Origin: Escherichia coli
Lineage (GTDB): Bacteria > Pseudomonadota > Gammaproteobacteria > Enterobacterales > Enterobacteriaceae
Length of the DNA: 64,000 bases
Assembly: GCF_050920415.1 (NCBI RefSeq)
Contig: NZ_CP169309.1
Reading direction: 5' to 3' (one strand)
The notes beneath the pieces were generated by a model. That model was given only the letters and a program-made list of their open reading frames with translations. It made no database searches and was not told the DNA's origin. Made by a program: the position numbers and the translations under genes. This document shows positions 29,954 through 31,268 of this stretch, in pieces. The first letter of the stretch is position 1. Each line of letters opens with the position of its first letter.

Positions 29954-30187
29954 ATGCGTAATATTGAAACCCTCACGACTAAAACCGGACCGGATGATGC
30001 AGGGCTTAATATTTTACTGACAGAGGCTCGTCTGGAAGAACGCCGGGCAAGGGCTGAAGCAATGGCAGCTCGCCTTGATAGCCTGGCGTGTCATATCACA
30101 TCCCGCCAGCTAAACCACGTCGAAGCAGCAGAACTACTGCGTGTAACTGCTGAAGCAATCCAGAACGAAGCGCAGGAGATCCACTAA
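29954..30187 (+). CDS. Hypothetical early-operon protein (77 aa)
   Basis: ATG at 29954 preceded by AGGAGA RBS at 7-nt spacing (ORF track begins at an upstream TTG). Confidence 0.45.
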   Translation: MRNIETLTTKTGPDDAGLNILLTEARLEERRARAEAMAARLDSLACHITSRQLNHVEAAELLRVTAEAIQNEAQEIH

Positions 30188-30414
30188 TGGCTGATGCAAT
30201 GGATCTTGTACAGCAGCGCGTTGAAGAAGAACGCCAGCGCCATATCCGTGCTGCCCGTGCCAAAACGCCGGGCGTGTCCCGCGTGCTTTGCATTGAGTGT
30301 GAAGCGCCAATTCCGCCAGCACGCCGCCGCGCCATTCCAGGTGTGCAGCTTTGCATTACCTGTCAGGAAATCGCAGAACTGAAAGGCAAACATTACAACG
30401 GAGGTGCTGTATGA
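30187..30414 (+). CDS. TraR/DksA-family C4 zinc-finger protein
   Basis: 75-aa ORF with CxxC-x17-CxxC (CIECEAPIP...CITCQ); such proteins are common in P2-like early operons. Confidence 0.7.
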   Translation: MADAMDLVQQRVEEERQRHIRAARAKTPGVSRVLCIECEAPIPPARRRAIPGVQLCITCQEIAELKGKHYNGGAV

Positions 30415-31268
30415 GCACCATCCTGAAATGGGCGGGAAATAAAACCGCCATTATGTCCGAACTGAAAAAACACCTTCCTGCTGGCCCGCGACTGGTTGAA
30501 CCTTTCGCGGGTTCCTGTGCTGTGATGATGGAGACGGATTACCCCAGCTATCTGGTTGCGGATATTAATCCTGATTTAATCAACCTCTATAAAAAGGTTG
30601 CCGCTGATTGTGAATCGTTTATATCTCGCGCCAGAGTTTTATTTGAGATCGCAAACAGGGAGGTGGCTTATTACAACATAAGGCAGGAGTTTAATTACTC
30701 CACTGAAATTACTGATTTCATGAAAGCGGTATATTTCCTGTATCTCAATCGTCACGGTTACCGTGGTTTATGTCGCTATAACAAGAGCGGGCATTTCAAC
30801 ATTCCCTACGGTAATTATAAAAATCCGTATTTCCCTGAAAAAGAAATTCGCGCATTTGCAGAAAAAGCCCAGCGGGCAACGTTTATCTGCGCCAGCTTTG
30901 ATGAAACGCTGGCGATGTTGAAGGCGGGGGATGTGGTGTATTGCGATCCGCCGTATGACGGCACGTTTTCCGGTTATCACACTGACGGCTTCACTGAAGA
31001 TGACCAGTATCACCTGGCATCCGTTCTTGAACATCGGTCATCAGAAGGACATCCGGTCATTGTTTCTAACAGTGACACATCCCTGATCCGTTCGCTGTAT
31101 CGCAATTTTACTCACCACTACATCAAGGCAAAACGCAACATCGGTGTGGCAGCTGGCGAGGGTAAATCAGCAACAGAAATCATTGCTGTTTCCGGGCCGC
31201 GCTGCTGGGTGGGATTTGATTATTCGCGTGGCGTGGACAGTTCTGCCGTGTACGGAGTACGTGCATGA
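30411..31268 (+). CDS. dam: DNA adenine methyltransferase (Dam-type, N6-adenine)
   Basis: ORF from [38 protein letters not shown]... with catalytic DPPY motif (VYCDPPYDG); ATGA overlap with the preceding gene. Confidence 0.85.

What the first reader, a model, noticed from the sequence alone, without database searches (positions are those of the whole stretch)
30187..31268. Phage-borne TraR-like zinc finger and Dam methyltransferase translationally coupled ahead of replication gene A
The ATGA overlaps (30411-30414 and 31265-31268) chain traR-like, dam and A into one coupled unit. A prophage Dam could modify host GATC methylation-dependent processes or protect phage DNA from restriction.
Basis: partly seen in the sequence, partly recalled or inferred. 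Interest (0 to 1): 0.4.

Follow-up and report, generated by a model that had tools for sequence, protein, structure and literature searches.

The report
P2-like prophage TraR–Dam–gpA early genes
This is the ordinary, already-annotated replication block of a P2/186-type prophage in E. coli, in which a small RNA-polymerase-binding zinc-finger protein, an orphan Dam DNA methylase and the replication nickase gpA are encoded by overlapping genes; about a quarter of complete E. coli genomes carry it.

Summary
ATGA stop/start overlaps sit at 30411-30414 and 31265-31268. The three ORFs are a TraR/DksA-type C4 zinc finger (30187-30414), a Dam-family N6-adenine methyltransferase (30411-31268) and P2-type replication protein gpA (31265-33679).

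The overlapping chain starts one gene earlier, at a DUF2732 gene (29954-30187, TAATG junction), just after a homolog of phage 186 terminator tR1. All of it lies in the CI-repressed early lytic operon of a 35.9-kb Peduoviridae prophage inserted at ssrA of E. coli.

The same four-gene block is annotated in Fels-2, phage Cartapus and Klebsiella phages. It occurs in 1240 of 5426 complete E. coli genomes, and a member of the Dam's ≥90% identity cluster is named "retron EC67 DNA adenine methylase".

Four-nucleotide overlaps are routine in this genome (5 of 29 co-directional junctions). Translational coupling into A has a precedent noted in the phage 186 record but is only inferred here.

Dam keeps the catalytic DPPY motif and six of the seven GATC-recognition residues scored. 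The TraR-like protein keeps D3, D6 and four Cys; its P2 ortholog Orf82 is a proven RNA polymerase binder.

Lysogenic conversion by this Dam is unlikely: no internal promoter was found and the host is Dam+. Verdict: real, ordinary, already known.

The parts
25105..25150 (.). attL: 46-bp exact copy of the 3' end of ssrA (left prophage border)
   Evidence: Exact direct repeat with 61026-61071.
26816..27829 (-). Prophage tyrosine integrase
   Evidence: Pfam Int_N 1e-28 and Phage_integrase 2e-24.
27831..28463 (-). 186-type CI immunity repressor, which represses the early lytic operon
   Evidence: Pfam Phage_CI_repr 6e-31 and Phage_CI_C 5e-28. Its function is taken from the 186 record.
28476..28504 (+). 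Candidate early promoter (pR-like), the only promoter-like site on the + strand upstream of the operon
   Evidence: Consensus scan found TTGACG-17-TAGTAT, 9 of 12 matches. This is weak evidence. The position corresponds to pR of 186.
28583..28831 (+). Apl/Cox-like first gene of the early operon
   Evidence: No Pfam hit. The positional homolog is annotated 'Cox-like excisionase and repressor' in Cartapus.
28864..29373 (+). CII-like regulator
   Evidence: Pfam Phage_CP76 2e-44.
29381..29581 (+). Fil-like cell division inhibitor
   Evidence: Pfam Phage_186_Fil 2.5e-24. The start follows the annotated homologs.
29545..29886 (+). DUF5347 gene
   Evidence: Pfam DUF5347 4e-33.
29905..29934 (+). Homolog of phage 186 terminator tR1 (small GC stem plus T-rich tail) in the gap before the overlapping gene chain
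   Evidence: The core GGCGTAAACCCGCCGGG is shared with 186 tR1, Fels-2 and Cartapus (tR1 annotation). The stem here is weaker than in 186, and function is inferred from 186.
29954..30187 (+). DUF2732 gene, first member of the overlapping chain
   Evidence: Pfam DUF2732 3e-29. Its TAA stop overlaps the traR ATG by 1 nt.
30187..30414 (+). TraR/DksA-family C4 zinc-finger protein (75 aa), ortholog of P2 Orf82
   Evidence: PF01258 3e-11; TIGR02419 65.8 bits (cut-off 59.7); PHROG 54. PDB hits YbiI 5e-11 and TraR 3e-9. D3, D6 and four Cys are invariant across orthologs and F TraR.
30411..31268 (+). Orphan Dam-family N6-adenine DNA methyltransferase (285 aa)
   Evidence: PF02086 1e-76; TIGR00571 320.9 bits; best PADLOC hit is orphan MTase, 5e-111. 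E. coli Dam structures match at 5e-73. DPPY and GATC-contact residues are conserved.
31265..33679 (+). Replication gene A (P2 gpA-type rolling-circle nickase, 804 aa)
   Evidence: PF05840 3e-127; PHROG 91 'nicking at origin of replication', 1.6e-289. An H-W-H and a Y-x-x-x-Y stretch are visible in the translation; equating them with the HUH and catalytic-tyrosine motifs of rolling-circle Rep proteins is my own knowledge.
33270..33307 (+). Probable origin / gpA nick site inside gene A
   Evidence: Aligns with the annotated nick sites of P2 and 186. No GATC lies in the core.
33775..33790 (+). LexA box (CTGT-N8-ACAG) ahead of the SOS operon that would trigger induction
   Evidence: Regex match TACTGTAAATATAAACAGTG. 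It is positionally equivalent to p95/LexA of 186.
34033..34266 (+). DinI/Tum-like gene (probable SOS antirepressor module)
   Evidence: Pfam DinI 1e-22; 186 tum annotation.
61026..61071 (.). attR: 46-bp repeat within the intact tmRNA gene (61027-61389, minus strand)

Best explanation
The region is the replication-proximal part of the early lytic operon of a 186/Fels-2-type P2-like (Peduoviridae) prophage integrated at ssrA of E. coli. SHOWN: four genes (DUF2732, a TraR-like zinc finger, an orphan Dam-family methyltransferase and the rolling-circle initiator gpA) are chained by stop/start overlaps of 1, 4 and 4 nt. Each start has an SD inside the preceding gene. The chain lies downstream of a tR1-like element, and no promoter-like site was found inside it. 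INFERRED: in the lysogen CI keeps the operon off. After SOS induction (LexA box plus a Tum/DinI-like module) or on infection, transcription from the pR-like promoter reads through. Ribosomes finishing one ORF then initiate the next, so the proteins are made together, and gpA synthesis depends on translation of dam, as reported for orf84 and A in phage 186. The TraR-like protein binds the RNA polymerase secondary channel through its N-terminal D3/D6 motif and its zinc finger. It then shuts down rRNA-type promoters and slows host growth, as shown for its ortholog P2 Orf82 and for lambda Orf73. Dam methylates the adenine of GATC on phage DNA that gpA-driven replication produces faster than the limited host Dam can modify, so that packaged genomes are fully methylated. 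dam occupies a variable slot between the TraR-like gene and A, which in other family members holds different genes.
For: The prophage context (int, CI, apl, cII, fil, then late genes; 46-bp att repeats at ssrA) comes. The host is E. coli: the flank is 99.8-100% identical to E. coli ssrA-smpB. The identical gene order and junctions are annotated in Cartapus, KP12, Fels-2 and E. coli WEC. No + strand promoter-like site lies between 28504 and 34352, and terminator-like hits are at chance level. A tR1 homolog precedes the chain. The 186 record notes that A translation needs translation to the end of the upstream ORF. RBS opening energies are 16.5 kcal/mol for dam and 15.2 for A, against 3.7-10.9 for the other early genes and a prophage mean of 11.4 (sd 4.1). 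For TraR function, D3, D6 and the four Cys are invariant. P2 Orf82 (46% identical, same position) competes with DksA for RNAP, inhibits rrnB P1 with IC50 250 nM and complements a ΔdksA strain, and D3N/D6N cripple lambda Orf73 (PMC9239242). For Dam specificity, the equivalents of K9, Y119, L122, R124, P134, Y138 and DPPY are conserved, with residue roles taken from PMC4417163. The variable slot is shown by P2 orf83, 186 orf81-84, PSP3 gp35 and Fels-2 or this prophage carrying dam. Dam directly upstream of A recurs in four more Peduoviridae genera.
Against: Nothing was measured: there is no methylation, expression or coupling data for this locus. Each gene has a good SD of its own, so independent initiation is possible. 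The RBS opening energies are only about 1 SD above the prophage mean. N120 (a base contact in EcoDam) is Arg here, R137 is Asn, and the third Gly of motif I is Cys, so altered specificity or kinetics cannot be excluded. The DxxDxA motif is DxxDxV here, and the same kind of deviation in P2 Orf82 was suggested to lower activity. The idea that Dam keeps pace with replication rests on general knowledge that host Dam is limiting. One paper states that the role of phage Dam enzymes 'is still not well understood' (PMC7556043). The ori core contains no GATC.
Confidence: 0.8

Rival explanations
1. Lysogenic conversion: the prophage Dam is expressed in the lysogen and changes host GATC-methylation-dependent processes such as phase variation, mismatch repair or replication timing.
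For: Prophage-encoded Dam-like methyltransferases can alter host phenotypes, for example PamA in S. aureus (PMC13076061). The block is present in 23% of complete E. coli genomes, which would be compatible with a host benefit.
Against: The gene is the seventh gene of the CI-repressed early lytic operon. No promoter-like site was found on the + strand from 28504 to 34352. It is chained by overlaps to the replication initiator gpA, which should be off in a stable lysogen. E. coli is a Dam+ species (own knowledge), so extra Dam adds little unless over-expressed. One E. coli genome carries an IS1 insertion in the gene (H68).
Confidence: 0.08
2. Anti-restriction with altered or relaxed specificity: the enzyme methylates GATC plus near-cognate or different adenine sites, protecting phage DNA against a wider set of restriction systems than host Dam would.
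For: N120 is Arg and R137 is Asn in the DNA-recognition region. It scores below the cut-off of the housekeeping-Dam equivalog model (286 against 441 bits), so it belongs to a separate lineage. Phage MTases with relaxed specificity exist (PMC7556043). The neighbouring slot genes in relatives include other DNA-metabolism functions such as an exonuclease and a PAPS-reductase-like protein.
Against: The residues that read base pairs 1, 3 and 4 of GATC and the intercalating Tyr are all conserved. Identity to E. coli Dam is 46% over 269 aligned residues. PADLOC's best model is the orphan Dam type. GATC frequency in the prophage matches the host, and no restriction partner is adjacent.
Confidence: 0.07
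3. The overlaps are just genome compaction. The genes are co-transcribed but translated independently, and dam is a neutral or selfish passenger in a variable slot with no functional tie to TraR or gpA.
For: Overlaps are routine here: 15 of 29 co-directional junctions overlap, 5 of them by 4 nt, and 7 of 41 junctions in Fels-2 overlap by 4 nt. Every start has its own strong SD. The slot content differs among P2, 186 and PSP3. RBS opening energies are only about 1 SD above the mean.
Against: The 186 record reports that A translation depends on upstream translation. Divergent dam genes (41-53% identical) sit directly upstream of A in at least four further genera even where TraR is absent, which argues for a non-random Dam-A association.
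Confidence: 0.2

Closest known systems
Fels-2 (Salmonella LT2) STM2732-STM2731-STM2730-STM2729 and Escherichia phage Cartapus gp40-gp43 (Peduoviridae)
   Same: Both have the same four genes in the same order: DUF2732, DksA-like zinc finger, DNA adenine methylase, gpA. Both have the same 1-nt and 4-nt overlaps at the first two junctions. The Fels-2 TraR-like protein is 91% identical and the Cartapus one 100% identical. Cartapus DNA is 97.3% identical over 29900-31400.
   Different: The Fels-2 dam/A junction overlaps by 10 nt with a GTG start instead of ATGA. The cargo genes outside the block differ.
Retron Ec67 (Eco2) host prophage Dam (Hsu, Inouye & Inouye 1990; Dodd & Egan 1996, as cited in PMC7826664)
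   Same: A 285-aa member of this protein's ≥90% identity cluster is named 'retron EC67 DNA adenine methylase'. The Fels-2 record lists the same similarity. The Ec67 element is a 186-related prophage of about 34 kb flanked by direct repeats and contains a dam ORF.
   Different: No retron or reverse transcriptase is present in this window. The cos-proximal cargo here is an IS21 remnant plus a DUF4145 gene. I could not read the 1990 paper, so the activity data are not verified here.
Phage 186 early operon orf79-orf80-(orf81-84)-A, with orf84-to-A translational dependence and terminators tR1 and tM1
   Same: Same operon architecture, DUF2732/TraR-like pair, ATGA junctions after the TraR-like gene and into A, and a tR1 homolog before the chain. 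The TraR-like proteins are 68% identical.
   Different: 186 carries four other genes in the slot (an exonuclease subunit, an unnamed ORF, DUF5405 and a PAPS-reductase-like protein) and no dam. A tM1 equivalent is not convincingly present here (z = -0.98).
P2 Orf82, lambda Orf73 and F-plasmid TraR (RNAP secondary-channel regulators)
   Same: About 75 aa, an N-terminal D3/D6 motif, CxxC-x17-CxxC and a C-terminal KHY. It is 46% identical to P2 Orf82 and 39% to F TraR, and sits at the same position in the operon as Orf82. Orf82 biochemistry is in PMC9239242.
   Different: The motif is DxxDxV rather than DxxDxA. The protein scores far below the F TraR equivalog cut-off (40 against 108 bits), so it is a family member and not a TraR ortholog. 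It is untested biochemically.
E. coli Dam (PDB 2G1P and others) and other phage Dam enzymes (T4, P1, HP1, VT-2)
   Same: A D12-class alpha-type N6-adenine MTase with DPPY. The residues equivalent to K9, Y119, L122, R124, P134 and Y138 are conserved. Identity to EcoDam is 46% over 269 aligned residues, with E = 5e-73.
   Different: N120R, R137N, the third Gly of motif I changed to Cys, and a different 25-aa C-terminal tail. It scores below the housekeeping Dam equivalog cut-off. T4 Dam is much more distant (E = 5e-18).

Membership tests
Dam family (D12-class, GATC-specific N6-adenine DNA methyltransferase) | Full-length match to the D12 / Dam family models above curated cut-offs | tested here: met
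   PF02086 258 bits (cut-off 22), profile 1-253 of 253. TIGR00571 320.9 bits (cut-off 114.85).
Dam family (D12-class, GATC-specific N6-adenine DNA methyltransferase) | Catalytic motif IV DPPY, and AdoMet motif I FxGxG N-terminal to it (alpha order) | tested here: met
   DPPY is at 179-182. Motif I is F32-A-G34-S-C36, so the third Gly is replaced by Cys. D51 equals EcoDam D54.
Dam family (D12-class, GATC-specific N6-adenine DNA methyltransferase) | GATC-recognition residues of EcoDam (K9, Y119, N120, L122, R124, P134, Y138) | tested here: met
   Six of seven are conserved (K6, Y117, L120, R122, P132, Y136); N120 is R118. Roles are from PMC4417163. This is a prediction of specificity, not a measurement.
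Dam family (D12-class, GATC-specific N6-adenine DNA methyltransferase) | m6A methylation of GATC in vivo or in vitro | not testable with these tools
   Needs a DpnI/MboI assay or a methylome.
Housekeeping Dam ortholog (NCBIfam equivalog NF008152 / PRK10904) | Score at or above the equivalog cut-off | tested here: not met
   286.2 bits against a cut-off of 441. This is a phage lineage of the Dam family, not the chromosomal dam ortholog.
Orphan methyltransferase (no cognate restriction enzyme) | No restriction endonuclease gene adjacent | tested here: met
   The neighbours are the TraR-like gene and gpA. The best PADLOC model is oMTase at 5e-111.
TraR family (phage / conjugal plasmid C4 zinc finger; RNAP secondary-channel binders) | DksA/TraR C4 zinc finger with four Cys; family model above cut-off; about 73 aa without the DksA coiled coil | tested here: met
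   PF01258 43.5 bits (cut-off 24.9); TIGR02419 65.8 bits (cut-off 59.7); 75 aa; CxxC-x17-CxxC.
TraR family (phage / conjugal plasmid C4 zinc finger; RNAP secondary-channel binders) | N-terminal DxxDxA motif required for activity | tested here: inconclusive
   D3 and D6 are present and invariant among orthologs, but position 8 is Val, not Ala. P2 Orf82 also lacks A8 and is active but weaker.
TraR family (phage / conjugal plasmid C4 zinc finger; RNAP secondary-channel binders) | Binds RNAP and inhibits rRNA promoters without ppGpp | not testable with these tools
   Shown for P2 Orf82 only (PMC9239242).
F-plasmid TraR ortholog (NF010268) | Score at or above the equivalog cut-off | tested here: not met
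   40.4 bits against a cut-off of 108.
P2 gpA-type rolling-circle replication initiator | Phage_GPA domain; nick-site (ori) sequence inside the gene | tested here: met
   PF05840 424.7 bits. An ori-like sequence at 33270-33307 aligns with the P2 and 186 nick sites. H-W-H and Y-x-x-x-Y stretches are visible in the translation; calling them the Rep active-site motifs is from memory and was not tested.
Translationally coupled gene pair | Stop/start overlap with the SD inside the upstream ORF | tested here: met
Translationally coupled gene pair | Downstream translation depends on upstream translation | not testable with these tools
   There is only a precedent, in the 186 record, and a modest RBS-occlusion signal.
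186/Fels-2-type Peduoviridae prophage | int-cI / apl-cII-fil...A early region, P2-type late genes, att repeats at a tRNA-like gene | tested here: met
   The 1501-bp block at 29900-31400 is 97-99.6% identical to deposited Peduoviridae and Klebsiella/E. coli phage records.

The most novel reading that the evidence does not exclude
The recurrent placement of divergent dam genes (41-53% identical) immediately upstream of gene A in at least six Peduoviridae genera, with or without TraR, may reflect a real functional dependency. Dam would have to be made in fixed proportion to the rolling-circle initiator so that progeny genomes are fully GATC-methylated. More broadly, the slot between the TraR-like gene and A (Dam, a PAPS-reductase-like protein, an exonuclease, DUF5405) may be a DNA-modification or counter-defence hotspot that is locked in because gpA translation depends on translating whatever sits there.
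Probability: 0.2. Interest if true: 0.35.

Novelty: already known. Interest (0 to 1): 0.1.

Why it matters
It matters little as a discovery. The module is annotated in RefSeq phage and bacterial records, and a member of the Dam's ≥90% identity cluster carries the 'retron EC67 DNA adenine methylase' name from the 1990 literature. Its TraR-like component has a biochemically characterised ortholog, P2 Orf82. The biological role of Dam in P2-like phages remains open, with the literature calling phage Dam function 'still not well understood'. So does the question of whether gpA synthesis really depends on translating the gene in the upstream slot. Because the block sits in about 23% of complete E. 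coli genomes, a clear answer would apply widely, for example to interpreting methylomes after prophage induction. The sequence itself offers no surprise.

Tried and rejected
1. A phage 186 tM1-type attenuator inside the 5' end of A. A GC hairpin with a T-rich tail exists at 31364-31395, but it folds no better than shuffles (z = -0.98, 35 of 200 shuffles as good). It is not positionally homologous to tM1, so I left it as an unproven lead.

2. Dam acting at the replication origin. The ori core maps to 33270-33307 and contains no GATC; the nearest is at 33199. Rejected.

3. GATC avoidance or enrichment as a restriction or regulation signature. Prophage O/E is 0.76 and host flanks 0.71. There is no signal.

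4. An internal promoter giving lysogen expression of dam. No + strand promoter-like site was found between 28504 and 34352, and the total number of hits is below the shuffle expectation.

5. A restriction partner that would make this an R-M system. None is adjacent.

6. Known structured RNAs on either strand. Rfam finds only the tmRNA and one tRNA in the window.

7. Reading Hsu et al. 1990 for Dam activity data. The paper is not held.

8. Searching for papers on 186 translational coupling or on P2-family Dam function. Nothing specific was found.

9. RBS occlusion as a test of coupling. dam and A are the most occluded starts in the early operon, but only about 1 SD above the prophage mean. This is suggestive only.
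Full report
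OBSERVATION. The sequence was read directly and ORFs were listed. The 75-aa ORF at 30187-30414 ends in TGA at 30412-30414, and the next ORF's ATG is at 30411-30413, giving ATGA at 30411-30414. That ORF (285 aa from ATG 30411) ends in TGA at 31266-31268, and the 804-aa ORF starts at ATG 31265, giving ATGA at 31265-31268. Each start is preceded by a Shine-Dalgarno sequence lying inside the upstream gene: AGGAG at 30174-30178, GGAGG at 30400-30404 and GGAG at 31254-31257. One thing was missed. The gene upstream (29954-30187) ends in TAA at 30185-30187 and shares one base with the traR-like ATG (TAATG). The overlapping chain therefore has four genes, not three.

IS IT MORE THAN CHANCE? The overlaps are conserved in homologous phages. 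The same 1/4/4-nt junctions are annotated in Escherichia phage Cartapus and Klebsiella phage KP12. Fels-2 has 1/4/10-nt junctions. The ATGA junction after the TraR-like gene is kept in P2, 186 and PSP3 even though the next gene differs. But overlaps as such are routine in this genome type. In the PGAP annotation of the E. coli WEC prophage, which is 100% identical over the reported block, 15 of 29 co-directional junctions overlap, 5 of them by exactly 4 nt. In Fels-2 the figure is 7 of 41.

WHAT THE GENES ARE. The ORF at 30187-30414 matches Pfam zf-dskA_traR (3e-11), NCBIfam TIGR02419 'phage/conjugal plasmid C-4 type zinc finger protein, TraR family' (65.8 bits, cut-off 59.7) and PHROG 54 'DksA-like zinc-finger protein'. 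Among solved structures it hits YbiI and TraR. The ORF at 30411-31268 matches Pfam MethyltransfD12 (1e-76, full length) and TIGR00571 dam (320.9 bits). It matches E. coli Dam structures at 5e-73, and its best PADLOC model is 'orphan methyltransferase'. The ORF at 31265-33679 matches Phage_GPA (3e-127) and PHROG 91 'nicking at origin of replication'. H-W-H and Y-x-x-x-Y stretches are visible in its translation; I recognise these from memory as the Rep-type active-site motifs and did not test them. A sequence at 33270-33307 aligns with the annotated nick sites of P2 and 186.

CONTEXT. Upstream on the same strand lie an Apl/Cox-like gene, CII (CP76), Fil and DUF5347, followed after a 67-nt gap by DUF2732. 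Divergently transcribed are a 186-type CI repressor and an integrase. Downstream are a LexA box (33775-33790), a small ORF and a DinI/Tum-like gene. Cargo genes follow, and then P2-type late genes running from the portal gene to gene D. A 46-bp exact direct repeat at 25105-25150 and 61026-61071 copies the 3' end of the tmRNA gene at 61027-61389 and delimits a 35.9-kb prophage. The right flank is 99.8-100% identical to E. coli ssrA-smpB-ratA, so the host is E. coli.

HOW COMMON AND HOW WELL KNOWN. The block at 29900-31400 is 96.7-99.6% identical to dozens of deposited Klebsiella and Escherichia phage records. The reported region, 30187-31268, is found in 1240 of 5426 complete E. coli genomes. 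There it is annotated 'DUF2732 family protein | TraR/DksA family transcriptional regulator | DNA adenine methylase | replication endonuclease'. The exact Dam protein occurs on at least 1000 contigs, and a member of its ≥90% identity cluster is named 'retron EC67 DNA adenine methylase'. The Fels-2 record makes the same link. The Ec67 'retron' was later recognised as a 186-related prophage that contains a dam ORF (Hsu et al. 1990; Dodd & Egan 1996, as cited in PMC7826664, which tabulates the same gene order in a Klebsiella prophage). The module is therefore already known.

ANATOMY AND COMPARISON. In P2, 186, PSP3 and Fels-2 the pair DUF2732 plus TraR-like gene is constant, and so is the ATGA junction after the TraR-like gene. 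What lies between it and A varies. P2 has orf83 (DUF5405). Phage 186 has four genes, including an exonuclease subunit and a PAPS-reductase-like orf84. PSP3 has gp35. Fels-2, Cartapus and this prophage have dam. dam therefore occupies a variable slot. Conversely, divergent dam genes (41-53% identical at protein level) lie directly upstream of gene A in Novemvirus, Reipivirus, Reginaelenavirus and Firavirus phages, where no TraR-type zinc finger precedes them. The Dam-A adjacency is thus the more widespread association. The 67-nt gap before DUF2732 contains a homolog of the annotated 186 terminator tR1: the core GGCGTAAACCCGCCGGG is shared by 186, Fels-2, Cartapus and the window. The stem here is weaker than in 186.

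MECHANISM: SHOWN VERSUS INFERRED. Shown by sequence are the gene identities, the overlaps, the internal SDs, the position inside the early operon behind a CI-type repressor, and the absence of any promoter-like site on the + strand between 28504 and 34352. Terminator-like hits are at chance level.

Inferred from family knowledge is the expression pattern. CI represses the operon in the lysogen, SOS induction acts through the LexA-controlled Tum/DinI module, and the four genes are then co-expressed.

Translational coupling into A has a precedent in the 186 record, which says 'translation to end of orf84 appears necessary for translation of A protein'. It also has modest computational support. 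The energy needed to open the SD-AUG region is 16.5 kcal/mol for dam and 15.2 for A, against 3.7-10.9 for the other early genes. That is only about 1 SD above the prophage-wide mean of 11.4.

For the TraR-like protein, D3, D6 and the four Cys are invariant across P2, 186, PSP3, Fels-2, Cartapus and F TraR. Its positional ortholog P2 Orf82 competes with DksA for RNA polymerase, inhibits rrnB P1 (IC50 250 nM) and complements a ΔdksA strain. The N-terminal aspartates are required in lambda Orf73 (PMC9239242). Position 8 of the DxxDxA motif is Val here.

For Dam, the EcoDam residues that recognise GATC are conserved: K9 and Y138 (first base pair), L122 and P134 (third), R124 (Gua4) and the intercalating Y119. 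So is DPPY. N120 is Arg, R137 is Asn and the third Gly of motif I is Cys (roles from PMC4417163). GATC specificity is therefore the best prediction.

The purpose of the phage Dam is an inference. The host is a Dam+ species, GATC density is host-like (O/E 0.76 vs 0.71) and the ori core has no GATC. The most economical role is keeping methylation in step with gpA-driven replication so that packaged DNA is fully modified. The literature calls the role of phage Dam 'still not well understood' (PMC7556043).

Modification of host processes by the prophage in the lysogenic state is disfavoured, because the gene belongs to a repressed operon with no internal promoter. Protection from restriction is possible but untested, and no sequence signature supports it.

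WHAT LED NOWHERE. A tM1-like hairpin at 31364-31395 is not significant. A second hairpin at about 31286-31319 lies just before the conserved FxWNxP codons of A and has counterparts in P2 and Fels-2; it remains unexplained. Rfam found only the tmRNA and a tRNA. Literature searches for direct work on P2-family Dam or on 186 coupling found nothing specific. Hsu et al. 1990 could not be read.

VERDICT. This is a correctly read, ordinary and already-annotated module of a very common E. coli and Enterobacteriaceae P2-like prophage. Interest is low. The only open questions are experimental ones: the role of Dam in the P2 family, and whether gpA translation really depends on the slot gene.

Noticed in passing
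window 25283-26803 (-): A 505-aa cargo gene lies between attL and the integrase. It has no Pfam or PADLOC hit and matches PHROG 14259 (unknown function). PGAP gives the identical gene in E. coli WEC the gene name 'gapS1' with product 'hypothetical protein'. From memory only, that name may refer to a recently described anti-phage system.
   Followed up: partly
window 35375-37338 (-): An IS21-family remnant is inserted in the cargo region between gene A and the portal gene. istB is split into two ORFs (35375-35788 and 35812-36171). An rve/HTH istA-like ORF at 36640-37338 is followed by 36293-36655. The E. coli WEC prophage lacks this insertion.
   Followed up: partly
window 37486-38184 (+): A DUF4145 protein has a weak PADLOC hit to PD-T7-4 (1e-6) and matches PHROG 1305 'DNA binding protein'. 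It lies next to the portal gene, in the position of the P2 tin/old cargo genes, so it is a candidate defence gene.
   Followed up: partly
window 34326-35057 (+): A 243-aa ORF with no Pfam or PADLOC hit matches PHROG 1353 (unknown function). Its N-terminus looks like a lipoprotein signal.
   Followed up: no
window 33775-33790: A perfect LexA-box consensus (TACTGTAAATATAAACAGTG) lies upstream of a 62-aa ORF (33834-34022) and a DinI/Tum-like gene (34033-34266). It is equivalent to the SOS-controlled p95-tum module of phage 186.
   Followed up: partly
window 35127-35191: Four GATC sites cluster within 65 nt, in the stretch between the 243-aa ORF and the IS21 remnant. The significance is unknown.
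   Followed up: no
window 31286-31319: A hairpin lies 21 nt into gene A (dG -14.1 here, -17.9 in Cartapus and KP12), just before the conserved FxWNxP codons. Comparable hairpins sit at the same relative place in P2 (offset 46, -18.9) and Fels-2 (offset 35, -18.6). It could affect A translation initiation and remains unexplained.
   Followed up: partly
window 20330-24229 (+) and 15721-15796: Left of attL the flank carries a 1299-aa AIDA/pertactin autotransporter adhesin and a tRNA-Met. In E. coli WEC the DNA left of the same prophage is different, with an integrase-domain protein and an ATP-binding protein/response-regulator pair. This suggests another variable island abutting the ssrA site.
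   Followed up: no
L007 2465-3304 (Yersinia phage vB_YenM_42.18, NC_070913): An intact 279-aa Dam reading frame (53% identical to the window's Dam) is not annotated as such in the RefSeq record. Two short 'hypothetical protein' CDSs and the start of gpA are drawn over it.
   Followed up: partly
L006 6891 (phage PSP3, NC_005340): The annotated start of gene A appears truncated. The sequence just upstream matches the interior of the 186 A gene, including the tM1 region, which leaves an apparent 218-bp gap after gp35.
   Followed up: no
E. coli O19:H7 strain 730V1, NZ_CP061764.1 3304244-3306102 (hit H68): An IS1 element interrupts this dam gene in one complete E. coli genome. It is a natural test case for polarity on gpA.
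   Followed up: no
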